64,000 bases of DNA from Thermoplasmatales archaeon (GTDB taxonomy: Archaea; Thermoplasmatota; E2; DHVEG-1): contig JBFYMG010000025.1 in NCBI GenBank assembly GCA_041305025.1, positions 5,590-69,589 of the forward strand, given 5' to 3'. Below are positions 33,303 through 61,065 of the stretch, piece after piece (the first letter of the stretch is position 1; each line of letters begins with the position of its first letter). The notes below the pieces were generated by a model that saw nothing but the letters and a program-made list of their open reading frames with translations, was not told where the DNA came from and ran no database searches. A program made the translations under genes and the position numbers.

Positions 33303-34034
33303 CTATAACATGGATCGGATCGCATTTATCAGATAAAATAAAATATCTCCTAGGACAAAAGAAGCAACAAAGCCGGCCAACAGTGGAATCATAAACGGAA
33401 TCTTTGGTGTGACCCATATCTCTTTCATACCAAGCTTTTCAAATTCTTCTAACTCTTTTTGGGTATCAAAATCCTTGGGCATGTACATAAATTTTCTTTT
33501 TCCATCTTTTATTTTTTCTAAAGGCCAGACAAACTTTTCTTTTGCTTTTGCAATAGTCATCTTGTAACCTAACAGACAATATGGAAATTCTGGGTTTTTC
33601 TTAACGATATTGAAAACTAACAGGCTTAGGGGGATGAAAAGGAATAGTATGACTGAATTTGAAAATATTGTCCAAGGAGTAGGCATAATTGTATATTTCC
33701 ACAGAGGAATATTGTTTATTATGGGTGGCAATGGCACAAGTATTGCCAAGGCCATAAGCGCTTTTGCGTCAGCTCCACCAAAAATAAGCCTCATTTGAAA
33801 TAGGAGATATACAAGAACAATCATGATAGGTATGAAAACAAGGTACATTGTTTTGTCTCCAAAGCCCACAGTAAAATATTGTATAGCCAAAAGAATGCCG
33901 CCGGCAACTCCCATTATAACCCACAGCATGTTTGATGCTCGTCTGGTTTTGATATCTGTATAAGAAGCGTAGGATAGTATTGCTATTCCAACAATAAGTC
34001 GCGTTATGTCAAGTAATGTTCCAGTTTCTGACAT
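33303..34034 (-). CDS. Archaeal type IV prepilin/preflagellin peptidase (FlaK/PibD/EppA family, A24-like)
   Basis: Polytopic membrane protein with two catalytic Asp motifs: SYTDIKTRRASN and GGADAK (compare FlaK GGADVK). Confidence 0.65.
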   Translation of the reverse strand: MSETGTLLDITRLIVGIAILSYASYTDIKTRRASNMLWVIMGVAGGILLAIQYFTVGFGDKTMYLVFIPIMIVLVYLLFQMRLIFGGADAKALMALAILVPLPPIINNIPLWKYTIMPTPWTIFSNSVILFLFIPLSLLVFNIVKKNPEFPYCLLGYKMTIAKAKEKFVWPLEKIKDGKRKFMYMPKDFDTQKELEEFEKLGMKEIWVTPKIPFMIPLLAGFVASFVLGDILFYLINAIRSML

Positions 34035-34371
34035 AATTAGGTGATATTGAAATCGGTAATATTAAGATGATGATAAAGTTGGGATGACAGTAAATTGTTA
34101 ATCGTATTTAACGATTTGATAGTAAAACTGTTAAGTATAGTTAACAACATTGCAGGAAAATATCCAAGAAAATTTACAACCGAAAAACTTTCTAAAGTTA
34201 GTAGGGATAATACATTAAACTATCGTTTACTTAATTAAATGCATGATACGCATGTTGGTCCCTATTTTATTCGTATAACTCCATGGTTTGTTGCATTTAG
34301 TGGTTTGGTTTTTTTGATGTCTAAAAATATAAATAGTGTTTATGTCATAATAGAGCTAAAAATGGTCGATT

Positions 34372-35930: not shown

Positions 35931-35951
35931 GTTGTTGCTTAACAAGTTAAA

Positions 35952-37046: not shown

Positions 37047-37171
37047 TAGTTTTTTACTTAGTTAAATCCAATTAGATACTTATTATTTGTTATGATGAAA
37101 AATTGAAAAGGACATCGTTATAAAAGGAATTATAAAAATGTTTATAAATTAAGAATAGTTGAATAGGAAAT

Positions 37172-38299: not shown

Positions 38300-38317
38300 G
38301 CAAAATATTGTAAAGCG

Positions 38318-40377: not shown

Positions 40378-40432
40378 TTAAAATTGGAATAAGCTAAACA
40401 ATTATCCTTATGATAACGAATATGGTAATTAA

Positions 40433-42535: not shown

Positions 42536-42577
42536 TATTTCTGTCCTTTAAAATTTTAATTCATAATTGAATTTTTT

Positions 42578-45899: not shown

Positions 45900-45994
45900 C
45901 TATAGTCCTCCTCGCCAGCGTTACAATTTACATTATATCATTATTATGGATATTTTTAACTATTAAAGATATACAAAATGAATTACATAAACCT

Positions 45995-49366: not shown

Positions 49367-49434
49367 ATTTAAATCAAAGAAATAAAAAGATATAAGGCAT
49401 CAATACGCAATATCCTCAATTTGGTGTATAATAA

Positions 49435-50562
49435 ATGATAAAAATTAGAGTTGTTGTTTTAACTGTCACCATTCTACTTTGTTTTTTTATTTTTTCCTTC
49501 ACGGTTGAGAATATCAGAGCAACAGATGAAAACACTATTTTTATTGATGATAACTATGATAACTCTACATATGGTTTCGGAGTAAATCATTTCAATCAAA
49601 TTCAATCTGCCATAAATGCTGCATCTGTTGGTAATACACTATACGTTTATTCTGGAGTATACTATGAAAATTTGTTAATAAATAAATCAATCTCAATTGT
49701 CGGAGAGGATAAAACAATTGTTGACGGTGGTGGTAACGGAGATGTAATTACAATAAAAGCTGATAAAGTATTCATAAACAATTTCTCCATTCAGAATAGC
49801 GGACATAGCGGACAAGATTCGGGTTTAAAAATTTTATCCGGTCAAAACATTATACAAAAAAATAACTTCGACGATAATCAAATAGGCATCTTAATACGAA
49901 ATAGCAAATCAAATTTTGTTTCGGGGAATAATATTACAAACAATACATATGGCATAGGGGTTGAATTTTGTAAAAATAAAAACGACATATACAAAAATTA
50001 TGTTTTCAATAACAAAATTACAGGGATATATCTATCTTATAGTGACAACAATTTAGTAAATCAAAATTATATAGAGAACAATAGCTATGGGATAGCATTG
50101 TCTTTTTGTAACAATACCCGCATTTTAGAAAATAACAACAAAAAAAATAACAACTACGGATTAAGTTTATATTCGTGCAGTAATAATCGTCTCGTTGGAA
50201 ATAGAATCACTGAGAGTAATCATGGAATTGTATTTGAAGAAAGCAATTTTAACAATACAATAGACAATAACAATATCAAAAATTATTCGTTTGGAATTAG
50301 AATAGGGAATAAAAACAAAAATACCACAATAACAAATAACATAATATCAAACGGAGATAATGGAATATACATCTCAGCAAAATCAAAAGAAAACCACATT
50401 TTTAATAATATATTCTCGAACAATGAGATTAAAATTCAAGAAGAGACAACATCTATCGAGAAAGAGATAGATTTTTTATACGTCTTGGTGCCGAGTTTTA
50501 TAATAATGTTAATAATAATGCTGTACGGTCTCTATAAGATACTGCAAAAAAAGATGTCGTAA
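49435..50562 (+). CDS. Right-handed parallel beta-helix repeat surface protein with C-terminal TM anchor (no PGF)
   Basis: Signal peptide; about 12 Asn-rich beta-helix turns (NNxI.GI....S); C-terminal hydrophobic helix LVPSFIIMLIIMLYGLY. Confidence 0.6.
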   Translation: MIKIRVVVLTVTILLCFFIFSFTVENIRATDENTIFIDDNYDNSTYGFGVNHFNQIQSAINAASVGNTLYVYSGVYYENLLINKSISIVGEDKTIVDGGGNGDVITIKADKVFINNFSIQNSGHSGQDSGLKILSGQNIIQKNNFDDNQIGILIRNSKSNFVSGNNITNNTYGIGVEFCKNKNDIYKNYVFNNKITGIYLSYSDNNLVNQNYIENNSYGIALSFCNNTRILENNNKKNNNYGLSLYSCSNNRLVGNRITESNHGIVFEESNFNNTIDNNNIKNYSFGIRIGNKNKNTTITNNIISNGDNGIYISAKSKENHIFNNIFSNNEIKIQEETTSIEKEIDFLYVLVPSFIIMLIIMLYGLYKILQKKMS

Positions 50563-50625
50563 ATATTCTAATCTAGACAAAAAAAATATAAAGAAAAAAG
50601 GGGAATTATTTTATTTAAAATTCTA

Positions 50626-51015
50626 TTATGTAAATTCCCATGTGCCCAATAATGTGTTTGTTGGTACGTATCTCAAGGTGACTGTATCTGGAGAACTTGT
50701 AAATTCGATGTAATCACCTGCCGTAACAGTACCCGTTGGAAAAGCAGAAATTGTTTCTCCTTCAACGAGTTCGATATCACTCCAATCTAAACTTGTCGGA
50801 TCAGCTGAAGATACAAGTAGCCTGTTGGAAATATCATTTTTTGAAAACTGTACGTTTGGTGTTACAGTAGGACTTGTTCCAATCATTCCACTAACGTATA
50901 CATACACTGTTGCTGCTATCGCTACTGTTATTGCAACCATTAAAATAACACCAATAACAGCCGAAACTGCTTCCTCACCTTTTATAAATTTCCTATTTGC
51001 TTTCATCTTTCCCAT
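50626..51015 (-). CDS. Archaeal type IV pilin (class III signal peptide, Pilin_N/DUF361-like)
   Basis: MGKMKANRKFIKGEEAVSAVIGVILMVAITVAIAATVYVYV: basic leader, KG cleavage context and conserved hydrophobic helix; 129 aa. Confidence 0.72.
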   Translation of the reverse strand: MGKMKANRKFIKGEEAVSAVIGVILMVAITVAIAATVYVYVSGMIGTSPTVTPNVQFSKNDISNRLLVSSADPTSLDWSDIELVEGETISAFPTGTVTAGDYIEFTSSPDTVTLRYVPTNTLLGTWEFT

Positions 51016-51290
51016 TCTCTCCTAGCTATATTTCAAGCTATTTCATTTTGACAGTAGATGGTTCACATGGTATATATACTTTTTGACTTTTGCTTTAATC
51101 TACATCTGGGAGTGACAAGAATTTTAAGATAATAAACTTACAAATAATTAAAACTTATAATTTAGAACATAGCAACGAAATGTTTATTATAAGTAAGTAA
51201 GTTTACAGTATTGTAAAAATAATAAAATAATGGGATGCCGCAAGAATAATTGTTGTAGTGCATCTACTAAATCTTTGGAGATTTGGAAGA

Positions 51291-52553
51291 ATGCCTAATG
51301 TAAAAAAGCATAAAGATAAGAAGCCAGTTAAACCAGAATCAGACATCATTCTAAAAAAAGAGATGAAGAATCTTGGTGAAAAAAAGATAAAATCCAATCC
51401 TAAAGCACTTTCTAACAAGAAAAAACAAGACAAAACAAAGAAAAACTCCGTTGATCTTCATTGGGAAATTGTAAAAAAAATTGACTCTCTAATCGCAGAA
51501 CATGAGAAAGAAACGGCATCTGAAGAAGAAGTTTTAGAAGGAATAGTAGAAGTAAGGAAACCTCTTAAGAAAAAGTTAGAGGCATCAGATTTTAAGTCTG
51601 ACATTCGAGCGGAAAATATTTCCAACTACTTAGATTTTGAAAACGAGCAATTTAAAGTAGAGCTTTCGGGTAGGGACAATCCTAGTTTTAAATTTGTTAA
51701 AGCCCTCGAAGAACCAAAAGATATAGTATACATAAGAGATTTGAATCAACTTGAAAAAAATGATGATTTTCATAGCAAAATGTTGGGTGGTTCGGATAAA
51801 ACAAATCAAAAAACTGCCATGGGTCTTGCCCGCATAAAAATTAGAAGTAGAGAAGAAAGAGCAAAGCTTAAAGACGCTGGAAATAAACCTAAGCATGCTT
51901 CTTCACCACAAAATATAAAAAACGTACGAGAAAAGGAAACAAAAAAAGTTAATGGATTTACTGCAGTTAAAAAAGAACTGGAAGAAACAAAAAGGGAAAT
52001 CGAAGAAAAGAAAAAGGAGCTGGAGCTGGCTGAAAAAAGAGCAAAGGAAGAAGCAGAGGAATTAAAGGAAAAAAAGAAAGAAAGATTTGAAAAAGATAAA
52101 GAAGGAAAAAAATTAAAAAGGCTCGAACTTAAACAAGCAAAGACAGAAGCAAAGGAAAGAGAAAAAAAATTAAGAGAAAAGGCCAAGATTGAAGCAAAGA
52201 ATAAAAAATTGGAAGCGAAAACTGCGTTGAAAGAAGAAAAACTCAAAAGAAAACTTGAGGCAAAAAAGAAGGTCGGCAAACCAGAAAAAGAAACAGCAAG
52301 TGTTTTGAAAGCAAAAAAACCAGACGACGAAAAAAGGAAAGAGAAAAGCTCTACAAAAGGTTTGCATCATTTTATTCTTGGTAAGAAAGAAGTAGCCGAG
52401 GAAAATCCAATTTTAGATGAGGACATAATACAGGTTCTCAGGATAGCCGACAATCTGCTAGAAAAGTTACCAAGTGAAGTTATTGATGAATTCGTTCAGT
52501 CTGAAGATTTTACATTGTATGAGAAGGTTATTAGTAAATATAAGATAAAGTGA
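51291..52553 (+). CDS. Lys/Glu-rich coiled-coil protein, candidate pilus-associated component
   Basis: ORF track starts at 51258; ATG at 51291 with GGAGAT 6 nt upstream is more plausible. Extreme KE coiled-coil centre and conserved-looking C-terminal block ENPILDEDIIQVLRIADNLLEKLPSEVIDEF. Confidence 0.4.
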   Translation: MPNVKKHKDKKPVKPESDIILKKEMKNLGEKKIKSNPKALSNKKKQDKTKKNSVDLHWEIVKKIDSLIAEHEKETASEEEVLEGIVEVRKPLKKKLEASDFKSDIRAENISNYLDFENEQFKVELSGRDNPSFKFVKALEEPKDIVYIRDLNQLEKNDDFHSKMLGGSDKTNQKTAMGLARIKIRSREERAKLKDAGNKPKHASSPQNIKNVREKETKKVNGFTAVKKELEETKREIEEKKKELELAEKRAKEEAEELKEKKKERFEKDKEGKKLKRLELKQAKTEAKEREKKLREKAKIEAKNKKLEAKTALKEEKLKRKLEAKKKVGKPEKETASVLKAKKPDDEKRKEKSSTKGLHHFILGKKEVAEENPILDEDIIQVLRIADNLLEKLPSEVIDEFVQSEDFTLYEKVISKYKIK

Positions 52554-52557
52554 GAAT

Positions 52558-54198
52558 ATGGGACTACTGGAAAAAGCACAGCAAAGAAAACAAGACGTAT
52601 TTGAAAAACCAAGGGATTCGGAAATAAGCATATTGAAAGAATTACCAAAAGAGATAAAATCAAAGAAAGGCGCCATCCAAAAGATAAAAATTGAAAAGGA
52701 ATTAAAGAAAGATTTACTTGACGAACGAAAGGGATTTGGATGGAAGGGGCTAGGCAGTAGAAAAATTGCCTTTGACGAAAGCATTAATGAATACAAATAC
52801 AATGTTTCAGAGCCCAGCTTAGATGAAGATGAAATACAAACAAAGAACGAGCTCGTTCGTTTGTTTAAAATGCTTGCCAACATCAACGTTTTCGATGTAG
52901 AGAAAGAAGAGAAAAAAAAATATCTTGAAGAAACATTGAACCAGATAGTAATAGATAACGACTTTAAATTTAAAGCTGGATCAAAGGATAAAATTTTTTA
53001 TCATATTTTTAGGGATTTTATAGGTTATGGCAGGATAGATATTTTGATGGGAGATGAAGGCATCGAAGACATTTCTTGTGATGGGCATCATGTACCAATA
53101 TTTATTTATCACAAGAAATACGATGCGATTTCAACAAATATTCATTTTCAAGATGGAGATGAACTAGATTCTTTTGTCGTACGTCTTTCGCAGATAAGTG
53201 GTAAACAGATATCCATCTATTCACCAATAGTCGATGGTAAACTGCCGGATGGCTCAAGACTTCAGACCACCCTTGCAAAAACTGTTACCAAAGGTTCAAC
53301 TTTTACCATTAGAAGATTCAGAGAAAACCCTCTAACCCCTGTCGATCTCATTAACTTTGGTTCAATGTCTGTTGATATGGCAGCATATTTCTGGATGGCT
53401 ATTGAAAACGGCGCCTCAATTCTCTTCTGTGGAGGAACGGCCAGCGGAAAAACATCTGCATTAAACGCACTGTCACTGTTTATACCAGCCCAGCACAAAA
53501 TTGTATCCATTGAAGATACTCGAGAGGTAAGCCTGCCTCATAAAAACTGGATAGCGGGCACAACAAGGCAAGGTTTTTCATCTTCTGATGACAGCAAAAC
53601 AGGTAAAGACATAGACATGTTTGATCTGATTAGAGCCGCGTTAAGGCAAAGACCTAGAGTCGTTATAGTCGGAGAGGTCAGAGGAAAAGAAGCATACAGC
53701 TTGTTCCAAGCCATGGCAACAGGCCACACATCTTACGCAACGGTTCATGCAAGCACCATACACACACTAATACAGCGATTGGAAAATCCTCCAATATCGC
53801 TACCAAGAGCACTGCTCACATCACTTGACATTATAGTATTTCAAAATGCAATTGATTTATGCGGAAAAACGGCAAGAAGAATGACCAGTGTGACCGAAGT
53901 AGTAAAGTTGGATCCTGATACTAATCAACTTATTTTTATGGAGCCGTTTAGCTGGGTTTCAAAAACAGATGACAGATTTGAAAGCACCGGTACAAGTAAG
54001 ATATTAAACAATATAAAACTACAGAATGACTGGACGGATGAGCATCTCACAAGGGAACTAGATAACAGAAAAATAATGCTTGAATGGATGAGAAAAAAAG
54101 AGATTAAAAACTACAAAGATGTGGGAAAAATCATAGCAGATTATCACAAATATTCTGATGTTTTGTTAAAGAAAGCAAAAGAGGAGATGAAGAAGTGA
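52558..54198 (+). CDS. FlaI/PilB/GspE-family secretion ATPase (archaeal type IV pilus or archaellum assembly ATPase)
   Basis: Walker A GGTASGKTSALNAL, Walker B IVGEVRGKEA, His-box ATGHTSYATVHAS; 546 aa. Confidence 0.9.
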   Translation: MGLLEKAQQRKQDVFEKPRDSEISILKELPKEIKSKKGAIQKIKIEKELKKDLLDERKGFGWKGLGSRKIAFDESINEYKYNVSEPSLDEDEIQTKNELVRLFKMLANINVFDVEKEEKKKYLEETLNQIVIDNDFKFKAGSKDKIFYHIFRDFIGYGRIDILMGDEGIEDISCDGHHVPIFIYHKKYDAISTNIHFQDGDELDSFVVRLSQISGKQISIYSPIVDGKLPDGSRLQTTLAKTVTKGSTFTIRRFRENPLTPVDLINFGSMSVDMAAYFWMAIENGASILFCGGTASGKTSALNALSLFIPAQHKIVSIEDTREVSLPHKNWIAGTTRQGFSSSDDSKTGKDIDMFDLIRAALRQRPRVVIVGEVRGKEAYSLFQAMATGHTSYATVHASTIHTLIQRLENPPISLPRALLTSLDIIVFQNAIDLCGKTARRMTSVTEVVKLDPDTNQLIFMEPFSWVSKTDDRFESTGTSKILNNIKLQNDWTDEHLTRELDNRKIMLEWMRKKEIKNYKDVGKIIADYHKYSDVLLKKAKEEMKK

Positions 54199-55061
54199 GG
54201 TCCACAAAATACACGAGATTTTGTCGACGTCTCTTCGCAAGAATATTTGAGCGATTCAACGTAAGCGAAACCAGCACAAATAGACTACTTGAAAAAGCAG
54301 ATATCAGTATGGTCTACCAAGAATATTACTCGATGGTTTTAATGAATATTATTGTTGGCTACATTGCATCTTTTGTTCCTACGTTGTTGCTATATCTACT
54401 GGTTCCCAACAATATTACGGCGCTGTTTATTCTTGCAATATCTTCGATAGTGCCAATATTTGCTGGATTGTACTATCTGAACTTACCAAGATCTAAAGCA
54501 AAAGCTCGTGGCAAAAAAATAGACCAATATCTACCATACGCTACAAATTTTATCAACACAATGTCGGTTGCAGGCATTTCACCTGCAGAGATATTTGAAA
54601 CATTGTCTACAGTGGAACTGTACGGTGAAATACAAAAAGAGGCGAAGAAAATCGCGATAGAAATCAACATGATGGGAATTGATACGGTTACTGCTCTGAA
54701 AAATTCAATAGCCATATCTCCATCTGCAAAGTTCAAAGAATTTGTTCAAGGCATGCTAGGCGTTATACAAGCTGGAAGTCAACTTGGACCTTACTTTGAC
54801 AGATGCGTTGACAAATATATGATGAATGATTTGATAGACAGAAAAAGAAACTTAGAGTCGCTTGCGGTTATGGCAGAAACTTTTGTGACAACTGTCATTG
54901 CGTTTCCTCTCTTTCTAGTTATTATCATCTCAGTAATGGGAATGACCAGTAGCCAAGGAATATCATTTAGTTTCCTGTTTATCTTGGCTTTTTTAATACT
55001 TCCCATGGCATACTTTGGGTTTTATGTCATGATGAGCTCCGGGATGGGAAAATCGGTATGA
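54195..55061 (+). CDS. FlaJ/TadC-like membrane platform protein, N-terminal T2SSF half
   Basis: T2SSF-domain motifs (LPYATNFINTMSVAGISPAEIFETL) and TM helices; 288 aa; 4-nt overlap with next ORF. Confidence 0.7.
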   Translation: MRSTKYTRFCRRLFARIFERFNVSETSTNRLLEKADISMVYQEYYSMVLMNIIVGYIASFVPTLLLYLLVPNNITALFILAISSIVPIFAGLYYLNLPRSKAKARGKKIDQYLPYATNFINTMSVAGISPAEIFETLSTVELYGEIQKEAKKIAIEINMMGIDTVTALKNSIAISPSAKFKEFVQGMLGVIQAGSQLGPYFDRCVDKYMMNDLIDRKRNLESLAVMAETFVTTVIAFPLFLVIIISVMGMTSSQGISFSFLFILAFLILPMAYFGFYVMMSSGMGKSV

Positions 55062-55957
55062 AGATTGCATTTAGAAAGAAGTACAATGCAAAAAAAATCT
55101 ATGAAAAGGACAAAACCATCCTATTTATTATAGCGATTTCAATGAGTTTTTCCATATTGCTGTTTTTACTAGGTTTTTTTACACTCATAGGAGTTATCGG
55201 ATTTTTCAATGATATAATATCTGGAGTTGATTTCCTTGTTTTTGGTTTATTGTCTATTATTGGACCTGTTGGATTTTATAACCACATGAAAGCTAAAAAG
55301 AAAAGAGATATAGAAGAGCAACTGCCTGATTTTCTTCGCGAAATAAGCAGCTCAACATCTTCAGGCATGACCATTTTTGATGCAATAAAATCTGCCGCAA
55401 GGGGCGACCACGGAAGATTGACCCCTGAGTTGCAAATGATGGCTGCCCAGCTCTCATGGGGCATACCAGTCAAAGATGCTTTGGACAATTTTGCAAAGAG
55501 AGTCGGCACAGACGCTATAAAACGAATGACCATAACAATAAATAAGGCACTGGAAATCGGTGGAAATACCGCGGCTGTTTTTAACGCTGCTGCAAGGGAA
55601 ATTGATCAGGCTAAACGTGTAGAACAACAAAGGAGAGCAGAGATGTCTATGTACGCAATAGTGATTTTCATTAGTTTTTTTGTGTTTTTAGCAGTGATTT
55701 TGATAATTGATAAAACAATATTTGCTGCAATTTTTGATATCCAGGGCAAGATGGCTGGAAAATCCATCGGAAATATGCAGATAGCAAATGTGGATCAAGG
55801 TATGTTAAAAAATACATTCTTTTCTTTTGTTCTCGTTCAAAGTCTAGGTGGAGGTTTGCTTGGTGGTTTCATGATGGATGGCAGGCTTTCATCGGGTGTT
55901 AGATTTGGCTTCATACTTGTTTTAGTCTCATTTTTTGTCTTTAAATTTATGTTCTAA
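55058..55957 (+). CDS. FlaJ/TadC-like membrane platform protein, C-terminal T2SSF half
   Basis: Second T2SSF domain (LPDFLREISSSTSSGMTIFDAIKSAA...LSWGIPVKDAL) and TM helices; 299 aa. Confidence 0.7.
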   Translation: MKIAFRKKYNAKKIYEKDKTILFIIAISMSFSILLFLLGFFTLIGVIGFFNDIISGVDFLVFGLLSIIGPVGFYNHMKAKKKRDIEEQLPDFLREISSSTSSGMTIFDAIKSAARGDHGRLTPELQMMAAQLSWGIPVKDALDNFAKRVGTDAIKRMTITINKALEIGGNTAAVFNAAAREIDQAKRVEQQRRAEMSMYAIVIFISFFVFLAVILIIDKTIFAAIFDIQGKMAGKSIGNMQIANVDQGMLKNTFFSFVLVQSLGGGLLGGFMMDGRLSSGVRFGFILVLVSFFVFKFMF

Positions 55958-56027
55958 GAATTTAGTCATTATGTAAAAATGGCACAAAGAATATAAATAG
56001 GAGAATAAAGAGAATCTTATCTGTGGA

Positions 56028-58376
56028 TTGGGAGAGATGAGAAAGAACGTTTCGTTTATTGATGAGTTTGCAGTATCTGAAGTAGTTGGTGCAATGATTC
56101 TAGTCTTAATTGCCATTGTTGCTTTTGCGGCAATTTACACGTATGTGTTTCCACTCCCAATACCAGCGCCAGAACCTACTGTTAAACTAGCGGGTTATGT
56201 AACTGAAGATGGAACTGCGGTATTGCAACACATGGGTGGAGAATCCCTCCCGGCATACAAAATAGACGTAAGAGCGTTAGATGGTACAATAATTAATACG
56301 GCAACCTATGAAAAAGGGGACGATCCTTGGGAGATAGGTGAATGCAATTATCCACCAACAAATACACCTTTACTCACGGAAAACGACAAAGTAAGTATTG
56401 AAGTTTATGAAATATATGATGACGGAAGCTTCTATCAAGTATTTACTGGCATTTTAGCTGGAAAGGGAAAAGTGGCCCAGCCTTCTGTACCACTGATGCT
56501 GATTTCAAGTCTTATGACCAATACAATTGATGAGGATCTAATATGTTACAATCATACAATTGAACCAAATATCGATGCCTCGACGTACATCTATAACTGG
56601 TCAGTTGGCGGAAATCCCTTAACGAATCTTTTGATGTCTTTTGATATGGACAGCTCAACAATTGCAAAGGATTATTCCGGTGGTAACAACAATGGAACCG
56701 TTATCGGTCCTCTTTGGATAAATGGTGGCGTTGTCGGCGGTGCATATCAATTTGATGGAATAAATGACCGCATTTCCGTCCCATATTGTTTTGATGGTAG
56801 TACTATTGATAAAATCACAGTAGAAACCTGGATTAAGACTACCGCCAATTCGGGGGTTATTGCATCTTTTGATAGAAAAAATTACTTGGAACTTGGATTT
56901 GTAGCTGGAAAGGCGCGATGGAGCACAACCGCAATTGATGGCACCAAGGATACAATTGGAAAAACTAGCATAAATGATGGAATTTGGCATCATATAGCTG
57001 CAACGTACGACGAATCTATAGGGAAATGCGCAATTTATGTTGATGGAAGGCAAGACGTCATTGAAAACGGACATAACCCGGGGATGCCATTAGGTTTAGG
57101 CACCATGCCACAAGGTTCAATAGGCACTGGAACAGGAATAACAAGAGAAACGATATTTTCTACCAGTTTTGAAACACAAAATGAAAAAAATAATTGGAAG
57201 CCAGATAACGAAACCTGGGGTGGTCAAACAGGTACTATAAAATGGGAAACTGTGTTCTATGATAATTTCGAAAGCAGCTATGGGAATTGGAATGACGGTG
57301 GTACGGATTGTATCAGATATACAGGTGGTACATATGCCCATCTTGGAAGCTGTGCAATAGATATACAAGATAACAGTGGATATTCTCAATCAGCAACATA
57401 TTCTAACATTATATCTGCCATTACTAACCAATATTCACAAATATCAATTGATTTCTGGTGGAGAGCAGTATCAATGGGGAGCGGAGAAGATTTTTGGGTG
57501 AATTATTATGATGGAACAACCTCTCATCGATTAGCAACGATTGTAATAGGAACAGGACAGTACGCCAACAATATATTTTATCACACGAGAATTTATGTTA
57601 ATGAAACTGAGTACACGCTTACAGATCAGGCGAGGTTTAGGATACAATGTGATGCCAGTGACGATGATGATGATATCTATTTAGATCAAATATACATCAA
57701 TGCAACTACTGGTGGTAGAACAGATTATGATTTTGATCTTTTTGATTCAACGAAATTAAACCCGAGGACTGGTACATATTCCATTGGTGGAACAGGTGAT
57801 TTTGATCCAGATTATGCGATTTTCAATAGAACTGGCATCGATGTTTCAGGATACAAAAGTGTGAGATTATCTGTATGGTATAGTTACAAAAGTACTGGAA
57901 GCGAGGATAAGGTTGGCCTGTATTACAAAGATGGTAGTGACTGGGCGACTATTTTTGAAGTGTTAAATCCAAATATAGGCATTGGTAATCAATTGCCATG
58001 GGCAAATATGGAAGTTCAGATACCGGACGATGTCGATAATCTTGCCCTTCAGTTCAATTGGTCCACCTCATCTACAAATGAGTATGTTGCTATAGATGAT
58101 CTTGAAATAACAGGAGAACCATTAGGTGCTGGAGACAACTTTAGCGGCATAATCGATGAATTCCGTATCTATAATCGTGCTCTTTCATCAGAGCAAATCT
58201 ATCAGAATTATCTTTGCATGAAAGATGGACATTCCGATAAACGTGTTATCGTATCCGGTGAGATTAAACTAGGCGATATTTGGAAATGTGTCGTAACTCC
58301 AAATGATGGTACTCAGGATGATGCTAGTATAGAATCCAACATCATACAAATTGTTACGTATCCGGGGGGTGTATGA
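56028..58376 (+). CDS. Large pilin-like surface protein with ConA/LamG-like lectin domain
   Basis: N-terminal EFAVSEVVGAMILVLIAIVAFAAIY resembles the archaeal Pilin_N helix. Central LamG-like block (FDGINDRISVP...IWHHIAATYD...AIYVDG). 782 aa. Confidence 0.55.
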   Translation: MGEMRKNVSFIDEFAVSEVVGAMILVLIAIVAFAAIYTYVFPLPIPAPEPTVKLAGYVTEDGTAVLQHMGGESLPAYKIDVRALDGTIINTATYEKGDDPWEIGECNYPPTNTPLLTENDKVSIEVYEIYDDGSFYQVFTGILAGKGKVAQPSVPLMLISSLMTNTIDEDLICYNHTIEPNIDASTYIYNWSVGGNPLTNLLMSFDMDSSTIAKDYSGGNNNGTVIGPLWINGGVVGGAYQFDGINDRISVPYCFDGSTIDKITVETWIKTTANSGVIASFDRKNYLELGFVAGKARWSTTAIDGTKDTIGKTSINDGIWHHIAATYDESIGKCAIYVDGRQDVIENGHNPGMPLGLGTMPQGSIGTGTGITRETIFSTSFETQNEKNNWKPDNETWGGQTGTIKWETVFYDNFESSYGNWNDGGTDCIRYTGGTYAHLGSCAIDIQDNSGYSQSATYSNIISAITNQYSQISIDFWWRAVSMGSGEDFWVNYYDGTTSHRLATIVIGTGQYANNIFYHTRIYVNETEYTLTDQARFRIQCDASDDDDDIYLDQIYINATTGGRTDYDFDLFDSTKLNPRTGTYSIGGTGDFDPDYAIFNRTGIDVSGYKSVRLSVWYSYKSTGSEDKVGLYYKDGSDWATIFEVLNPNIGIGNQLPWANMEVQIPDDVDNLALQFNWSTSSTNEYVAIDDLEITGEPLGAGDNFSGIIDEFRIYNRALSSEQIYQNYLCMKDGHSDKRVIVSGEIKLGDIWKCVVTPNDGTQDDASIESNIIQIVTYPGGV

Positions 58377-58380
58377 TTCC

Positions 58381-60348
58381 ATGATGAAGCACCACAATAA
58401 ACATCTTGGAATAATAGTTGGATGTGTCCTTGTGCTATCGACAATTTTTGCCGTATCTATTTCCGATCGAGCCTCTGCCGGTTCTTATGATGGTCAAGAT
58501 CTTGCACTTGCCATTCTTGAAAATCAATCAACACTAGTAAGTTCATCATATACAGATACTGATGGCTTTGGTCACAGACAAGGAGTTGTTCTTTCATCAC
58601 TTGGTACAATGCTACCAACTAATGGTCCAACATTTGCATTGCTGAGTAACGGCTTTGCAGGTACACCCATAGTTACCACTGGTGCCACAAATCCCGGTGA
58701 TGAAAGAGGGTCGTGGTTTACTGGAGGAAAATATGGCTTACCAAGAGATGAAGCAGCGCTAACAATGACACTTAGAGTACCGCCATTTATGCATTATTTA
58801 TACTATGATGTGCAGTTTTTCAGCACAGAATGTCCTGAGTATATAGGATCACAATATAACGATAAATTTACTGTTACTGTTAATTCGCCATCTAAAGGTA
58901 TTACTACATATCTATTAGATGTAAATAGCGGAAATTTTGTACTGGATTCAAACTATATCGCAGGCACGGGCTTTGACATTTTTGCTAGAAGTGGAAATCC
59001 CAGTGGCCCCAGTTGGGTGGATACAACACCTAGACGGCCAGGGGCAGATGGAGGAGCAACAGCCCTAGTTACGCATGGAGGTCAATTCCATCCTGTGTCG
59101 CCTTATGAACAGATTACAGTAAAATTCGATATGATAGACACTGGAGATAATCAACTTGACAGTGCTGCTTTCATAGACAATCTCTACTTTTCAGGGTTTG
59201 CAAAAACAGAAATAATAGCAAGAAAAACGGTACAAGATTTGAATGGAGAACCTTTGGAATGCGATGACACTTTAAAATATATAATCACCATCAGCAACAC
59301 TGGGGCAGCAAATCAAAACAATAATCCTGGAAACGAGTTTGAAGACATCATACCTATAAATACAACATATGTGCCTAATTCAGCTACAGCAACTTCTGGG
59401 GCAATTAGTTACAGCGGAGGTAAGATAATATGGAATGGCGGCGTACCGTCAGAAAGCAGCGTCGCATTAACATTCAATGTCACTGTAGATGCGGGTGTAG
59501 AAAACGGTACAATAATATCAAATCAAGGAACCGTTTACTGGGATAGCAATGAGGATGGAACAAATGATGCCACTGAACTAACTGATGATCCTGCAGCCGA
59601 TGACGGCATAGACAAAGATGGAGATGGGCAAACAGGAGATGATGATCCTACAGATATATTAGTCATTGTTTTTGAGCCTCCACCAATGGTGACCGAAGAT
59701 TTCTCTGACGACAGTCCAGGAGGAAAAGCAACACAATCATTTTATGGAAGACCTTGGTTTGAAACAAGCCAAGGAGAAACAGAAAGTGTTTTTGAAGTTG
59801 CAGCGGGTTACCATTATTCGACAGCAAACTCTTTCAAAACAAAATTAAGAGCAATAGGCAGCCCACAATATTGGAACTATACTTTATCTGAGCTTGACAG
59901 TGATATGGATTGGTGGGAAGCATGGTTTGCCTGTGGAAATGCAAGTGAAGCATCTGATCTTTATTTAGATTTTAAAAACAACAACGGAAATGATATAGCC
60001 AAAATAAAATTTGAGTACGTGCATATGGGAACTGAGTTACCAATGGACTGGGTTTTACAACTCTATTATGGAGACCAAGCCAGTGGATGGATTCGTTTAT
60101 ACTCCGATTACCAAGGCGGATATCTATTCAACAATTGGTACAAACTAAGAATTGAGAAAAATGATCTTAGCAATATCGAATATTCGTTGTATAGAAACGG
60201 TAGGGGTTTGATTGACTTCAAAACAGACGAACAACTAAGCGCACCTTTCTCCAATTTTGCAAGCGTTAGATGGAGCAGCACAAGAAACCCTGTTGTCAGT
60301 CCCATGTTTTTCTGGGATGAGCACGTCGTTGGACTTACAAGCAACTAG
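58381..60348 (+). CDS. Secreted surface protein with DUF11/CARDB-like repeat and Ca-binding-like Asp cluster
   Basis: ORF track starts at 58351; the signal peptide begins at MMKHHNKHLGIIVGCVLVLSTIFAVS. Contains TLKYIITISNTGAANQN (DUF11-like) and DKDGDGQTGDDDPTD. Confidence 0.5.
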   Translation: MMKHHNKHLGIIVGCVLVLSTIFAVSISDRASAGSYDGQDLALAILENQSTLVSSSYTDTDGFGHRQGVVLSSLGTMLPTNGPTFALLSNGFAGTPIVTTGATNPGDERGSWFTGGKYGLPRDEAALTMTLRVPPFMHYLYYDVQFFSTECPEYIGSQYNDKFTVTVNSPSKGITTYLLDVNSGNFVLDSNYIAGTGFDIFARSGNPSGPSWVDTTPRRPGADGGATALVTHGGQFHPVSPYEQITVKFDMIDTGDNQLDSAAFIDNLYFSGFAKTEIIARKTVQDLNGEPLECDDTLKYIITISNTGAANQNNNPGNEFEDIIPINTTYVPNSATATSGAISYSGGKIIWNGGVPSESSVALTFNVTVDAGVENGTIISNQGTVYWDSNEDGTNDATELTDDPAADDGIDKDGDGQTGDDDPTDILVIVFEPPPMVTEDFSDDSPGGKATQSFYGRPWFETSQGETESVFEVAAGYHYSTANSFKTKLRAIGSPQYWNYTLSELDSDMDWWEAWFACGNASEASDLYLDFKNNNGNDIAKIKFEYVHMGTELPMDWVLQLYYGDQASGWIRLYSDYQGGYLFNNWYKLRIEKNDLSNIEYSLYRNGRGLIDFKTDEQLSAPFSNFASVRWSSTRNPVVSPMFFWDEHVVGLTSN

Positions 60349-60372: not shown

Positions 60373-61065
60373 TTAATGGGGTTCTCTAATCGGGTCGAAA
60401 AATAGGTAGCTATTATCGACGTTGTCTTTTAGTTCTTCATAAAATTGAAGTTGCTCAGTGTAATCTTCTTCCGTAAGGTTGAAATTTTCCATAAGCATTG
60501 TTACGTTTTCCATGTTTCCGATTGAAAGATTTTCAACTGCTTGGCGTAAAAAATTACTTGCGTTGTATCTTAACAAAGTTATAATCTGTCCTGCTTGTGC
60601 AAAGCTAATAAAAGAGTTGATTGCATCAAGGTACTTCTCTTTATCAGTATAGTTTTTTGCTTCCATAAAGTATGGTTTTGATTCGCCAAATTTTTGATAA
60701 GATGCCAAATAGCTCATCATTGCATCCGTACAATTTTCAGAGCACCTTTGAATGAAATTCTGGGTTGTATTTACCAAAGCATTACTGTACCAAAACAGCG
60801 CAAAATCAAAATGATAGTTTCCCACCTCCCGTATTTCACGAGCGGAAACCATAGTAATGGATCCTTGCAAAAAGTGATTGGTAAAATTCTCGTTCTTACT
60901 GTTAATATCTTCGATTTCGACAACATGTGCCGTATTTAACGTTTCTATTTTTGAACGATTTACTATATCTGCAACAAAATAAGTTATGATAAAGACGCCC
61001 ACCATTATTGCCACTAGCATTATAAACAAATTTTTAGTAAATTCTCTTGCCATAAACCTCACCAC
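60373..61065 (-). CDS. hypothetical N-terminally anchored membrane protein (230 aa)
   Basis: Single N-terminal TM segment (LFIMLVAIMVGVFIITYFV) and a soluble domain without recognisable motifs. Confidence 0.35.
   Translation of the reverse strand: MVRFMAREFTKNLFIMLVAIMVGVFIITYFVADIVNRSKIETLNTAHVVEIEDINSKNENFTNHFLQGSITMVSAREIREVGNYHFDFALFWYSNALVNTTQNFIQRCSENCTDAMMSYLASYQKFGESKPYFMEAKNYTDKEKYLDAINSFISFAQAGQIITLLRYNASNFLRQAVENLSIGNMENVTMLMENFNLTEEDYTEQLQFYEELKDNVDNSYLFFDPIREPH

What the first reader, a model, noticed from the sequence alone, without database searches (positions are those of the whole stretch)
50626..60348. Compact archaeal type-IV-pilus-like locus with non-canonical components
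The locus carries a divergently oriented minor pilin (class-III signal), an about 420-aa Lys/Glu coiled-coil protein with a conserved C-terminal block, a FlaI/PilB ATPase and a two-part T2SSF platform. It also carries a 782-aa protein that combines a pilin-like N-terminal helix with a LamG/ConA-like lectin domain, and a DUF11/Asp-cluster surface protein. There are no FlaF/G/H or FlaCDE homologues, so it is not an archaellum. The LamG-bearing pilin-like protein looks like a tip adhesin. The KE-rich protein has no obvious counterpart in described Aap/Ups/Epd pilus systems. The matching prepilin peptidase is 17 kb away (33303-34034).
Basis: partly seen in the sequence, partly recalled or inferred. 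Interest (0 to 1): 0.65.

Follow-up and report, generated by a model that had tools for sequence, protein, structure and literature searches.

The report
Archaeal pilus locus with ATPase adaptor
An uncultured Thermoplasmatota archaeon carries a complete type IV pilus gene set (not a swimming archaellum) that includes a lectin-bearing pilin, and its motor ATPase seems to be tethered by a short N-terminal 'MGLLEKA' tag to a highly charged adaptor protein, a tag-and-domain pairing that recurs in other archaea and next to bacterial signalling enzymes and that I found described in no paper.

Summary
All the genes exist at the stated coordinates, with significant family matches and tight operon spacing. 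The order KE protein, ATPase, two platform halves, LamG pilin and DUF11-like protein is conserved in a dozen related Thermoplasmatota genomes.

It is a type IV pilus-like (TFF) system, not an archaellum. It is nearest to the euryarchaeal 'clade 2 / System 2' ATPases (afGspE/PilB3 type).

- The 129-aa pilin is the only small pilin, so it is more likely the major one.
- The KE region looks like a single charged ER/K-type helix, not a classic coiled coil.
- The DUF11 match is below threshold. That protein has a Sec signal and a choice-of-anchor-L domain.
- A conserved 230-aa membrane protein (60373-61065) also belongs to the locus.
- The peptidase is 17 kb away only because a 16.6-kb low-GC glycosylation island was inserted. 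In relatives it lies beside or within about 3.3 kb of the pilin.

New result: the KE protein's C-terminal three-helix block (Pfam PF27359) is nearly always followed, 0-57 nt downstream, by a protein that starts with MGL(L/R)x(K/R)A. This held for 66 of 74 cases, against 0 of 1,897 other ORFs. The followers include pilus ATPases, GAF/GGDEF proteins and DUF835 proteins. I infer a docking pair that tethers the ATPase. Binding itself is untested.

The parts
33303..34034 (-). Class III (prepilin) signal peptidase, FlaK/PibD type
   Evidence: Peptidase_A24 E=1.6e-8 plus Arc_PepC_II E=2.4e-18. Its orthologue lies 150-1,250 nt from the pilin in L015, L025 and L081, and about 2.5-3.3 kb away in L084 and L009.
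50626..51015 (-). 129-aa type IV pilin, divergent from the operon. It is the only canonical small pilin in the window, so probably the major subunit.
   Evidence: Pilin_N E=1e-11 and TIGR02537 E=3.6e-10. A motif scan of all ORFs finds no other canonical class III N-terminus. The N-terminus AVSAVIGVILMVAITVAIAATVYVYVSGM is nearly identical in 9 relatives.
51291..52553 (+). KE-rich cytoplasmic adaptor protein, 420 aa. Layout: disordered N-region with one conserved helix, a long charged single helix, a linker, and a C-terminal three-helix block.
   Evidence: No TM segment, and 67% charged core. AlphaFold2 with a 19-sequence alignment: helix 55-76, helix 222-328 (pLDDT above 90), three-helix end 373-416. 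Conserved upstream of the ATPase in 18 fetched loci plus the window.
51453..51518 (+). Conserved N-region helix of the KE protein (VDLHWEIVKKIDSLIAEHE motif). Its partner is unknown.
   Evidence: H57, K63 and D65 are invariant in the 19-sequence alignment A7. It is predicted as a helix at residues 55-76.
51954..52274 (+). 107-residue Lys/Glu-rich helix, probably an ER/K-type single alpha-helix spacer
   Evidence: pLDDT above 90 as a monomeric helix. In the best heptad register only 37.5% of a/d positions are hydrophobic, and there are 29 i/i+4 opposite-charge pairs.
52407..52550 (+). C-terminal block: a small acidic three-helix domain, catalogued as Pfam PF27359 'TP_0179'
   Evidence: Precomputed PF27359 labels on homologues. 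AlphaFold2 mean pLDDT 85.8, three helices. 2,578 representative proteins match at E<=1e-3, nearly always at the extreme C-terminus.
52558..54198 (+). Assembly ATPase, 546 aa (T2SSE/VirB11 superfamily, afGspE/PilB3-like)
   Evidence: T2SSE E=1.3e-35, PilB3_C 23.4 bits. Best solved relative is A. fulgidus GspE 2OAP at 383 bits, against FlaI at 289 bits. Walker A GGTASGKT, Walker B VIVGEVRG, Asp box SIEDTRE and His box ATGH are read directly from the sequence.
52558..52590 (+). N-terminal tag MGLLEKAQQRK of the ATPase, the proposed docking peptide for the KE C-terminal block
   Evidence: 19 of 19 ATPases with an upstream block start MGL(L/I)(E/D). None of the ATPase ORFs without an upstream block does (about 110 ORFs in about 60 loci). 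31 of 31 tag-bearing ORFs lie downstream of a block, against 0 of 1,897 other ORFs.
54195..55061 (+). Platform protein, first half (one T2SSF domain), 288 aa
   Evidence: T2SSF E=6.4e-13. It aligns to the N-terminal half of the ArlJ/UpsF models. Its start overlaps the ATPase stop by 4 nt.
55058..55957 (+). Platform protein, second half (one T2SSF domain), 299 aa
   Evidence: T2SSF E=4.8e-21. It aligns to the C-terminal half of the ArlJ/UpsF models. 4-nt overlap with the preceding gene.
56028..58376 (+). 782-aa pilin-like protein. A LamG/ConA-like domain is interrupted by a variable insertion of about 330 aa. Candidate tip or displayed lectin.
   Evidence: Pilin_N E=7e-10, Laminin_G_3 E=6e-17 in two stretches. 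PDB match to an S-layer-domain LamG protein, 4QVS, E=3.9e-8. Residues 1-370 and 700-781 are conserved in all orthologues. The insertion is present in L005, L006, L008 and L009 only. The N-terminus (Y/F/S)A|VSEV(V/I)GG is conserved.
58381..60348 (+). 655-aa Sec-secreted surface protein: choice-of-anchor-L domain, DUF11-like Ig-type repeat (below threshold), Asp-rich TSP3-like cluster, and a C-terminal beta-rich domain
   Evidence: NF038133 scores 32.4 bits against a cut-off of 27. DUF11 scores 21.4 against 24.6. Signal peptide with AxA|GSYDG is conserved in 12 orthologues. No match by sequence to solved structures.
60373..61065 (-). 230-aa bitopic membrane protein (N-terminal anchor plus a probably helical domain).
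   Evidence: 41-62% identical orthologues lie directly after the DUF11-like gene in 8 loci, plus a marginal 22% match in L025. No family match.

Best explanation
The locus encodes a non-motile type IV pilus-like (TFF) machine of an uncultured Thermoplasmatota archaeon.

Shown:
- The locus has a prepilin peptidase, one small pilin, a VirB11-family ATPase with intact catalytic motifs, and a platform split into two one-domain genes.
- It also has a large pilin-headed LamG protein, a Sec-secreted surface protein, and a bitopic membrane protein.
- Apart from the peptidase, these are co-linear in relatives, and most are packed as one operon. The peptidase lies beside or within about 3.3 kb of the pilin in relatives.

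Inferred:
- The peptidase trims the 129-aa pilin and the 782-aa LamG protein.
- The ATPase and the two-part platform polymerise the small pilin.
- The LamG protein is too bulky for the filament body, so it sits at the tip or base as a glycan-binding adhesin.

New element:
- The 420-aa KE protein is a cytoplasmic adaptor.
- I propose that its acidic C-terminal three-helix block (PF27359) binds the basic N-terminal peptide MGLLEKAQQRK at the end of the ATPase's flexible extension of about 75 residues.
- Each ATPase protomer would then be tethered, through a charged single helix about 16 nm long (107 residues at 0.15 nm rise), to whatever the conserved N-region of the KE protein contacts.
- The same block-then-tag gene pair precedes other archaeal pilus ATPases and bacterial GAF/GGDEF and DUF835 proteins. 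It therefore looks like a general docking module that this pilus system uses for recruitment, positioning or control of its motor.
- Binding itself is inferred from co-occurrence and has not been shown.
For: Core machine:
- Family matches.
- The ATPase is nearer afGspE (383 bits) than FlaI (289 bits).

Synteny:
- KE block, ATPase, F1 and F2 occur together in 18 fetched loci plus the window. LamG, DUF11-like and the 230-aa gene follow in 8-12 loci.
- The peptidase lies beside or within about 3.3 kb of the pilin in L009, L015, L025, L081 and L084. In L017, L019 and L022 the DnaJ-peptidase pair lies directly upstream of the KE gene and no pilin was detected.

Adaptor, within ATPase-selected loci:
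- The tag is present in 19 of 19 ATPases with an upstream block. It is absent from all ATPase ORFs without one (about 110 ORFs in about 60 loci).
- That includes L014, L016 and L025, which keep the LamG/DUF11 synteny but lack both the KE gene and the tag.

Adaptor, over all held sequence:
- 66 of 74 block genes are followed at -1 to 57 nt by an ORF starting M(G/S)L(L/R/M/I)x(K/R). This holds in 19 of 24 clusters at 60% identity.
- 0 of 1,897 other ORFs carry the tag.

Independent followers:
- T2SSE ATPases of three further archaeal types (L087; L088, L091 and L092 with ParA/MinD upstream; L097 through a separate 325-aa tagged protein).
- GAF and GAF-GGDEF proteins (L082; L089 from Leptospiraceae, with 4 tag copies).
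- A DUF835 protein (L085) and a 705-aa coiled-coil protein (L090).

Nature of the tag:
- It is encoded by 46 different 21-nt sequences using all Gly and Leu codons, so selection acts on the peptide.
- It recurs internally 1-3 times in ATPase linkers.

Other support:
- Block endings LGI/LNI/LEL pair with MGLR, and KYKIK/RYGVK pair with MGLL/M.
- Predicted structure: three-helix block, net charge -5, pLDDT 86; 107-residue helix; no TM segment.
Against: - No binding evidence exists.
- Exceptions occur. L135 has a block gene with no tagged follower. L133 has only MGLADIG. In L134 the block is not C-terminal.
- Most of the 66 positive cases belong to one Thermoplasmatota clade, so the number of independent events is nearer 10-19.
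- The block has no significant structural neighbour in the PDB (best Foldseek E=6.8), so nothing by analogy says it binds peptides.
- Expression, piliation and adhesin function are untested, because the organism is known only from metagenomes.
- Whether the 129-aa pilin is the major subunit cannot be settled from one 64-kb window.
Confidence: 0.6

Rival explanations
1. The machine is a bindosome-like or 'functionalised TFF' system. It would build only a short pseudopilus whose job is to display the LamG lectin, and perhaps the secreted 655-aa protein, at the surface for substrate capture. It would not build a long adhesive pilus.
For: - The largest class III-type substrate is a carbohydrate-binding-fold protein.
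- Sivabalasarma and Albers 2026 (bioRxiv 10.64898/2026.04.22.720090) argue that binding proteins with class III signals functionalise many archaeal TFF systems.
- The neighbourhood is rich in surface and glycan genes and proteases.
Against: - The locus has its own conserved small pilin with a typical globular part. L025 even has two in tandem.
- The bindosome models BasE and BasF score far below their cut-offs: 200 against 1000 and 30 against 1300.
- No ABC transporter is linked.
Confidence: 0.2
2. The block-tag co-occurrence does not reflect direct binding. Both elements may contact a third factor, such as the membrane or a ParA/MinD-type positioning ATPase. Alternatively the pair may be the remnant of a split gene, kept together for translational coupling only.
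For: - Stop-to-start distances are very short (-1 to 15 nt in most cases), which fits translational coupling.
- A ParA/MinD gene precedes the block gene in the Altiarchaeota-type loci.
- Makarova et al. 2016 (PMC4858521) predicted MinD/FleN involvement in clade 2 systems.
Against: - Internal extra copies of the tag, far from any start codon, are hard to explain by translational coupling.
- Selection acts on the peptide, not the RNA.
- Two bacterial pairs are 46-57 nt apart.
- No top representative of the block family (0 of 139) carries the tag at its own N-terminus, so a simple fission remnant is not obvious.
Confidence: 0.2
3. It is an archaellum (motility) locus, as public annotation of the ATPase ('flagellar protein FlaI') implies.
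For: The FlaI equivalog model is the top NCBIfam hit (E=1.4e-117).
Against: - The score of 393.7 is below the cut-off of 550.
- afGspE is closer than FlaI.
- No ArlF/G/H/C/D/E/X was found among the scanned ORFs.
- The pilin lacks an archaellin domain.
- The platform is split into two genes.
Confidence: 0.02
4. The KE ORF is a low-complexity artefact and not a real gene.
For: - Gene callers often truncate it to a fragment of 36-98 aa.
- The sequence from the ATG at 51291 is not in the protein collection.
Against: - A full-length open frame exists in every fetched locus with intact upstream sequence (13 of 18; the others are cut by the contig end), with conserved N-region motifs and a conserved C-terminal block.
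- 512 representative proteins match at E<=1e-10.
- The predicted fold is confident at both structured parts.
Confidence: 0.01

Closest known systems
Euryarchaeal 'clade 2' / System 2 type IV pili (Haloferax volcanii PilB3-PilC3 with PilA pilins; Archaeoglobus fulgidus GspE, PDB 2OAP)
   Same: - The ATPase is closest to afGspE (383 bits) and has a weak PilB3_C match.
- It has an extended N-terminus.
- The pilin is PilA/DUF1628-type.
- Large adhesin-like proteins sit in the locus, as described for System 2.
   Different: - The platform is split into two genes. Makarova et al. note this for many clade 2 loci, whereas Sivabalasarma and Albers treat it as a System 1 trait.
- The KE adaptor with its PF27359 block, and the MGLLEKA tag, are mentioned in neither paper.
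- The pilin and peptidase are encoded in cis.
CdiP pilus of Cuniculiplasma divulgatum (Thermoplasmatales; ISME J 2025, PMC12448462)
   Same: - Same phylum.
- The platform is split into two genes (CdiPFa/CdiPFb).
- No AapX homologue.
- The more distant Thermoplasmata loci I fetched (L026-L080) mostly show this layout, with two ATPases.
   Different: - The window has one ATPase, not two.
- The pilin is adjacent, not 500 kb away.
- The window adds a KE adaptor, a LamG pilin, a choice-of-anchor-L protein and a 230-aa membrane protein.
Epd pili of Methanococcus maripaludis (System 1) and the bacterial Tad pilus derived from them
   Same: - Two separate platform genes.
- Adhesin-like, class III-signal proteins in the locus.
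   Different: - Epd major pilins lack a globular domain, whereas this pilin has one.
- The CpaF/TadA models score much lower than afGspE (155 against 383 bits).
- No EppA-specific evidence was found.
Cytoplasmic scaffolds of related machines: ArlX / ArlCDE / ArlH of the archaellum, the halobacterial clade 4F coiled-coil protein arCOG07564, bacterial GspL-GspE and TadZ
   Same: - Each is a cytoplasmic accessory encoded next to the ATPase and presumed to dock on it.
- Makarova et al. list a coiled-coil protein as a presumed regulatory subunit in clade 4F.
   Different: - No sequence relation was detected.
- The KE protein has no TM anchor, unlike ArlX.
- It has no ATPase fold, unlike ArlH and TadZ.
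- It seems to use a terminal peptide-domain pair that is also found outside pilus systems.
Pfam PF27359 'TP_0179' (named after a Treponema pallidum hypothetical protein)
   Same: The C-terminal block of the KE protein's homologues carries this label in precomputed annotations.
   Different: - The family is absent from my local Pfam copy, so I could not read its description.
- Papers that mention TP0179 treat it only as a hypothetical, recombining gene.
- I found no paper describing the tag pairing or a link to pilus ATPases.
Sulfolobus bindosome (Bas system)
   Same: A TFF ATPase and platform that handle binding proteins carrying class III signal peptides.
   Different: - The BasE and BasF models are far below cut-off.
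- No linked sugar ABC transporter.
- A bona fide small pilin is present.

Membership tests
Archaeal type IV filament (TFF) assembly system | VirB11/T2SSE-family hexameric ATPase with intact Walker A, Walker B, Asp and His boxes | tested here: met
   T2SSE E=1.3e-35. The motifs GGTASGKT, VIVGEVRG, SIEDTRE and ATGH are read in the sequence.
Archaeal type IV filament (TFF) assembly system | Polytopic platform protein with two T2SSF domains | tested here: met
   Two adjacent genes with one T2SSF domain each (E=6e-13 and 5e-21). They align to the N- and C-terminal halves of ArlJ/UpsF.
Archaeal type IV filament (TFF) assembly system | Filament subunit with a class III signal peptide | tested here: met
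   Pilin_N above cut-off for both the 129-aa and the 782-aa protein. The 129-aa pilin matches the FlaFind-type motif.
Archaeal type IV filament (TFF) assembly system | Class III signal peptidase | tested here: met
   Peptidase_A24 plus Arc_PepC_II at 33303-34034. Its orthologue lies beside or within about 3.3 kb of the pilin in L009, L015, L025, L081 and L084.
Archaellum | ArlI/FlaI-type ATPase reaching the equivalog cut-off | tested here: not met
   NF058587 scores 393.7 bits against a cut-off of 550. afGspE scores higher than FlaI.
Archaellum | Stator and accessory genes ArlF, ArlG, ArlH, plus ArlCDE or ArlX | tested here: not met
   No such family among the locus proteins, or among the roughly 50 larger ORFs scanned, which span most of the 64-kb window. 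The rest of the genome was not seen.
Euryarchaeal clade 2 / System 2 pili (PilB3/afGspE type) | ATPase groups with clade 2 ATPases | tested here: inconclusive
   The best solved relative is afGspE. PilB3_C scores 23.4 bits, below the cut-off of 27. No phylogeny with arCOG reference sequences was possible.
Euryarchaeal clade 2 / System 2 pili (PilB3/afGspE type) | PilA (arCOG02416-type) major pilin and arCOG02911-type minor pilin | not testable with these tools
   arCOG profiles are not available here. Only the generic Pilin_N was tested.
System 1 / Epd pili | Platform split into two genes | tested here: met
System 1 / Epd pili | Short Epd-type major pilin without a globular domain (arCOG06620) and a dedicated EppA peptidase | tested here: not met
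   After the predicted cleavage the pilin is about 112 aa, of which about 85-90 aa are non-helical. EppA specificity could not be tested.
CdiP-type Thermoplasmatales pilus | Two ATPase paralogues beside the split platform, with pilins encoded remotely | tested here: not met
   The locus has one ATPase and an adjacent pilin. Many of the more distant loci L026-L080 have two ATPases.
Aap / Ups pili | AapX or UpsX accessory protein; UpsA, UpsE and UpsF equivalogs | tested here: not met
   UpsA scores 29.8 against 130, and UpsF 37 against 400. No Fe-S or UpsX-like protein is in the locus. UpsX and AapX were not compared directly.
PF27359 (TP_0179) domain proteins | Match to the PF27359 model | tested here: inconclusive
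   The model is absent from the local Pfam copy. 31 of 36 close homologues of the block carry the precomputed PF27359 label. A profile of the block finds 2,578 representative proteins.
Proposed block-tag docking pair (not a described family) | Block at the extreme C-terminus, with the next gene starting with M-G-L-(L/R/M/I)-x-(K/R) | tested here: met
   In the window the block ends at 52550 and the ATPase starts with MGLLEKA at 52558. The rule holds in 66 of 74 cases, against 0 of 1,897 other ORFs.
Proposed block-tag docking pair (not a described family) | Physical binding of the block to the tag | not testable with these tools

The most novel reading that the evidence does not exclude
The PF27359 three-helix block and the N-terminal MGL(L/R)x(K/R)A peptide form an undescribed and widespread docking system. 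Scaffold proteins, often with long charged single helices, would use it to capture the protein encoded immediately downstream. Archaea would use it to tether type IV pilus ATPases in at least four locus types. Bacteria such as Leptospiraceae would use it for GAF/GGDEF signalling enzymes. If so, the window's KE protein is a new class of pilus-motor adaptor, with the ER/K helix acting as a spacer about 16 nm long.
Probability: 0.5. Interest if true: 0.78.

Novelty: new variant of a known kind. Interest (0 to 1): 0.62.

Why it matters
Archaeal type IV filament systems are now being catalogued by their accessory genes. How the motor ATPase is recruited, positioned or switched is known only for the archaellum.

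This locus gives a defined variant, conserved across a Thermoplasmatota clade from sediments, whose ATPase carries a detachable accessory. The accessory has a simple readable signature: a 45-residue domain followed by a 7-residue tag on the next protein.

The same signature links pilus ATPases to bacterial c-di-GMP enzymes. It therefore gives a directly testable hypothesis (peptide-domain binding) for thousands of 'hypothetical' charged proteins.

It also corrects routine annotation. Public pipelines call this ATPase 'FlaI', which would wrongly imply motility in these uncultured archaea.

Finally, the LamG-headed pilin with a swappable nested insertion is a candidate determinant of what these sediment archaea attach to.

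Tried and rejected
1. Fusing the block, a Gly-Ser linker and the tag for AlphaFold2, with a paired alignment of 22 loci.
2. Metagenome scans with broad alignments of divergent blocks. A narrower alignment worked but mostly returned the same clade again.
4. 'Rosetta stone' idea. ATPases of L014, L016, L020, L024 and L025 lack the KE gene and the tag, and I asked whether they carry the KE N-region fused to their N-terminus. The motifs look alike (IHExIDxL, NPSF.F). However, only L020 gives a weak HMM hit (E=1e-3), and hhalign gives 1.7% probability. Not established.
5. Inverted repeats around the inverted 230-aa gene. Only a weak AT-rich 16-nt pair at 75% was found, probably by chance.
6. The bacterial promoter and terminator scan was uninformative for an archaeon.
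7. Pfam, NCBIfam and PHROGs gave nothing for the KE protein or the 230-aa protein.
8. A literature search for GLLEKA, GLLDKA, GLLxKA and PF27359 found no paper.
9. The search for homologous proteins returned only fragments under 100 aa of the KE family. Full-length relatives came from the representative search instead.

Full report
WHAT IS THERE

- **Pilin.** 50626-51015(-) encodes a 129-aa protein with an archaeal pilin N-terminus. Pilin_N gives E=1e-11 and the archaellin/pilin N-terminal model gives E=3.6e-10. The sequence is ...KGEEA|VSAVIGVILMVAITV.
- **KE protein.** The long ORF 51258-52553 most likely starts at the ATG at 51291 (420 aa). It has no family match in my Pfam, NCBIfam or PHROGs copies.
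- **ATPase.** 52558-54198 is a T2SSE ATPase (E=1.3e-35) with readable Walker A, Walker B, Asp and His boxes.
- **Platform.** 54195-55061 and 55058-55957 each hold one T2SSF domain. They align to the first and second halves of ArlJ/UpsF.
- **LamG protein.** 56028-58376 combines Pilin_N (E=7e-10) with Laminin_G_3 (E=6e-17).
- **Surface protein.** 58351-60348 matches DUF11 only below threshold (21.4 bits against 24.6). It passes the choice-of-anchor-L model (32.4 against 27) and contains the Asp cluster.
- **Peptidase.** 33303-34034 carries Peptidase_A24 plus Arc_PepC_II.

Genes from KE to the platform are separated by 4 nt or overlap by 4 nt.

ORGANISM AND SETTING

- A scan of species-representative genomes with the ATPase returned only Thermoplasmatota-type MAGs. 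The best matches are 76-82% identical: L013, L015, L017, L018, L019 and L022. The set includes 'Thermoplasmatales archaeon SM1-50'.
- The rest of the window is archaeal housekeeping: L1/L10, PolB, FtsZ, TiaS, ArcTGT, aTrm56, RtcB and HMG-CoA reductase.
- The exact ATPase, LamG protein and pilin sequences lie on one 77,962-bp NCBI contig. Members of the ATPase cluster are publicly labelled 'flagellar protein FlaI' or 'type II/IV secretion system ATPase'.

NOT AN ARCHAELLUM

- The FlaI equivalog model scores 393.7 bits against a cut-off of 550.
- The nearest solved relative is Archaeoglobus fulgidus GspE at 383 bits, ahead of FlaI at 289 bits and CpaF at 155 bits.
- No ArlF/G/H/CDE/X family appears among the roughly 50 larger ORFs scanned, which span most of the window.
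- The Ups and bindosome models are far below their cut-offs.

The published census of archaeal type IV pili describes a euryarchaeal clade 2. That clade has PilA-type pilins, often two tadC-like genes, S-layer-like or adhesin-like partners, and a predicted MinD/FleN link (PMC4858521).

The 2026 re-classification describes System 2 ATPases with extended N-termini and large adhesin-like proteins. It assigns split platforms to System 1.

The only structurally studied pilus in this phylum is CdiP of Cuniculiplasma. It also has a split platform, but with two ATPases and remote pilins. Many of the more distant Thermoplasmata loci I fetched look like CdiP, with two ATPase ORFs. The window's locus is a separate variant.

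CONSERVATION OF THE WHOLE SET

tblastn of the window proteins against the fetched loci gives the following.

- ATPase, F1, F2, LamG and DUF11-like occur in the same order in L002, L004, L005, L006, L008, L009, L011, L014, L015, L016, L019 and L025.
- A 230-aa protein (window 60373-61065) follows in 8 loci at 41-62% identity, plus a marginal 22% match in L025. It has an N-terminal membrane anchor and no family match.
- That gene is on the opposite strand in the window and in L025, and co-directional elsewhere. It is therefore a conserved member that can carry its own promoter.
- The 129-aa pilin is the only canonical class III N-terminus in the window. Its hydrophobic N-terminus is nearly invariant among relatives, and L025 has two tandem copies. 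It is more likely the major subunit than a minor one.
- The DUF11-like protein has a conserved Sec signal (AxA|GSYDG), not a pilin signal.
- The LamG protein's core (residues 1-370 and 700-781) is conserved in all orthologues. An insertion of about 330 aa is nested in the LamG fold and is present only in the window, L005, L006, L008 and L009. Part of it recurs in other pilin-like proteins of L020, L021 and L023. This is a modular, swappable head, as expected of an adhesin. Tip location is an inference from its size.

WHY THE PEPTIDASE IS 17 KB AWAY

- In L009, L015, L025, L081 and L084 the peptidase lies on the same strand as the pilin and upstream of the divergent KE-ATPase operon, preceded by DnaJ in L009, L015 and L084. 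The gap to the pilin is 150-1,250 nt in L015, L025 and L081, and about 2.5-3.3 kb in L084 and L009.
- In L017, L019 and L022 the DnaJ-peptidase pair lies directly upstream of the KE gene, and tblastn detected no pilin.
- The window has the same DnaJ-peptidase pair at 32153-34034.
- Between that pair and the pilin lie 16.6 kb of low-GC DNA (0.28-0.33 against 0.36-0.40).
- This stretch encodes an AbiEii toxin, several glycosyltransferases, a sulfotransferase, a methyltransferase, a flippase, a PMT_2-type protein and NosD-like proteins.
- It is an inserted surface-glycan island, so the link between peptidase and pilin is ancestral.

THE KE PROTEIN

- Homologues from 18 loci are 310-490 aa where complete.
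- They share short N-region motifs (VDFHLEIVKKIDxL, VExRxPLxKK, NPxFxFV) with invariant H57, K63 and D65.
- The middle is a variable K/E/Q/R-rich stretch.
- The C-terminal block of about 45 residues is strongly conserved: LDEDxxKxLxITDxLLGxLPxEVIxxFxxSxDFxLYEKVxxKYKIK.

AlphaFold2 with a 19-sequence alignment predicts the following:
- disorder over residues 1-220, except a helix at 55-76;
- one continuous helix at 222-328, with pLDDT above 90;
- a linker;
- a three-helix end at 373-416.

The block alone folds with mean pLDDT 85.8. The helix core is 67% charged. Only 37.5% of a/d positions are hydrophobic in the best heptad register, and there are many i/i+4 salt-bridge pairs. There is no TM segment. 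It therefore looks like an ER/K-type single helix rather than a classic coiled coil.

Precomputed annotations label the block PF27359 'TP_0179'. A profile search of 1.84 billion representative proteins finds 2,578 matches at E<=1e-3 and 512 at E<=1e-10. The block is nearly always at the extreme C-terminus of charged proteins of 270-600 aa, and is sometimes duplicated. Occasional fusions occur, including a DnaA ATPase domain and CBM96. Papers that mention TP0179 call it only a hypothetical gene.

THE BLOCK-TAG RULE

Within the ATPase-selected loci:
- Every ATPase preceded by a block starts with MGL(L/I)(E/D)..., usually MGLLEKAQQKK. This holds in 19 of 19 loci.
- None of the ATPase ORFs without an upstream block does (about 110 ORFs in about 60 loci).
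- L014, L016 and L025 keep the LamG/DUF11 synteny but have lost both the KE gene and the tag.

In unrelated contexts, the gene right after a block gene starts as follows:

| Locus | Follower starts | Follower protein |
|---|---|---|
| L082 | MGLRERA | GAF protein |
| L085 | MGLRDKA | DUF835 protein |
| L089 | MGLLDRA, plus three more copies | Leptospiraceae GAF-GGDEF protein |
| L090 | MGLREKA | 705-aa coiled-coil protein |
| L087 | MGLLTKL | T2SSE ATPase with a single 530-aa platform |
| L088, L091, L092 | MGLLTKA / MGLLAKA / MGLMKRA | ATPase of ParA/MinD-block-ATPase loci; L088 is from an Altiarchaeota MAG |
| L097 | MGLLDRV | Separate 325-aa protein, followed by a PilB3_C-type ATPase |

In L087 an earlier block protein is followed by a second block protein that itself starts with MGLLEKA.

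Counts:
- In the 1.32 Mb held, 31 of 1,928 ORFs of at least 100 aa carry the tag. All 31 follow a block, and none of the other 1,897 carries it.
- After the metagenome scan, 66 of 74 block genes with downstream sequence have a tagged follower at -1 to 57 nt. This holds in 19 of 24 clusters at 60% identity.
- The eight cases without a strict tag break down as follows. Two are near-tags (MGLLEQA), one is partial (MGLADIG), and one has a frame problem (L100). One is a clear exception (L135). Three have no scorable follower: L084 and one other lack a downstream ORF, and in L134 the block is not C-terminal.

Nature of the tag:
- It is encoded by 46 different 21-nt strings that use all Gly and Leu codons.
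- It recurs internally in the ATPase linkers. It is therefore a peptide motif, not an RNA signal.
- Block endings LGI/LNI/LEL go with MGLR, and KYKIK/RYGVK go with MGLL/M.
- The block is acidic (net charge -5), and the tag region is basic.

MECHANISM PROPOSED

Shown: a complete, conserved TFF gene set, and a strict genomic pairing of block and tag.

Inferred:
- The block binds the tag. Each protomer of the ATPase hexamer would then be tethered by its flexible N-terminal extension of about 75 residues to a KE adaptor.
- In relatives the extension is longer and carries up to three tags.
- The adaptor's helix of about 16 nm and its conserved N-region would connect to a further partner, such as the platform, a membrane protein or a positioning ATPase.
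- The role could be recruitment, spacing or sequestration of the motor. I cannot choose among these.
- The peptidase processes the small pilin and the LamG pilin. The LamG head and the secreted choice-of-anchor-L protein provide binding specificity.

LIMITS

- There is no binding, expression or filament evidence.
- Most positive cases come from one clade.
- The block has no significant structural neighbour in the PDB.
- Placement in clade 2 rests on similarity scores, not on a tree.
- I could not read the Pfam text for PF27359.
- A literature search for the tag motif and for PF27359 found nothing, but that library does not cover all journals.

VERDICT

As a pilus locus it is a new variant of a known kind. 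The block-tag pairing is the part worth following up.

Noticed in passing
window 34035-50625: A 16.6-kb low-GC island (0.28-0.33) lies between the prepilin peptidase and the pilin. It holds an AbiEii toxin, GT4/GT2 glycosyltransferases, a sulfotransferase, a methyltransferase, a flippase, a 1123-aa repeat+PKD+PMT_2 protein, and two NosD-like beta-helix proteins. It is absent from relatives, where the peptidase lies beside or within about 3.3 kb of the pilin.
   Followed up: partly
window 60373-61065: The conserved 230-aa membrane protein is inverted (- strand) in the window and in L025. It is co-directional with the operon in L004, L005, L006, L009, L011, L015, L019 and L081. Only a weak AT-rich inverted repeat flanks it.
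   Followed up: partly
window 61416-63239: The 607-aa NosD/PKD surface protein ends ...TPGFEIITFIISITLILLWIKRRL. This is a PGF-CTERM-like sorting signal. The NCBIfam Heimdall-CTERM model scores 21.2 bits, below the cut-off of 24. It suggests archaeosortase-type anchoring.
   Followed up: no
window 52558-52790; L081 10151-12301; L094 1019-2128: The ATPase N-terminal linker is hypervariable. The ATPase is 546 aa in the window but 600-760 aa in relatives, through K-rich repeat insertions and one to three GLLEKA copies.
   Followed up: partly
L097 1936-5809: In this locus type the MGLLDRV tag sits on a separate 325-aa protein of no known family. That protein is encoded between a scaffold with two blocks and a PilB3_C-type ATPase.
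   Followed up: partly
L088 4058-9217; L091; L092: In L088, an Altiarchaeota MAG contig, the order is ParA/MinD ATPase, a 59-aa block-only protein, a T2SSE ATPase with winged-helix N-terminal domains, then two T2SSF genes. L091 and L092 show the same first three genes before the contigs end. Here the block protein has no charged helix at all.
   Followed up: partly
L014, L016, L020, L024 and L025 ATPase N-termini: ATPases that lack both the KE gene and the tag have N-terminal extensions of 120-185 aa. Their motifs resemble the KE N-region (IHExIDxL, NPSF.F). Statistics are weak (HMM E=1e-3 for L020 only; hhalign 1.7%), so a fusion origin is not established.
   Followed up: yes
L025 7703-9376: Two nucleotidyltransferase/HEPN-like toxin-antitoxin pairs are inserted between the tandem pilin genes and the ATPase. 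This is the same intergenic zone that took up the island in the window.
   Followed up: no
window 52558-54198: Public pipelines name this ATPase cluster 'flagellar protein FlaI', although it is below the FlaI equivalog cut-off. Motility calls for these MAGs that rest on this gene would be wrong.
   Followed up: yes
window 63249-63998 and 45995-49366: A peptidase C25 (gingipain-type) gene fragment lies at the window end. The island also holds a 1123-aa protein that joins YGG/DGGY-type repeats and a PKD domain to a PMT_2 glycosyltransferase membrane domain.
   Followed up: no
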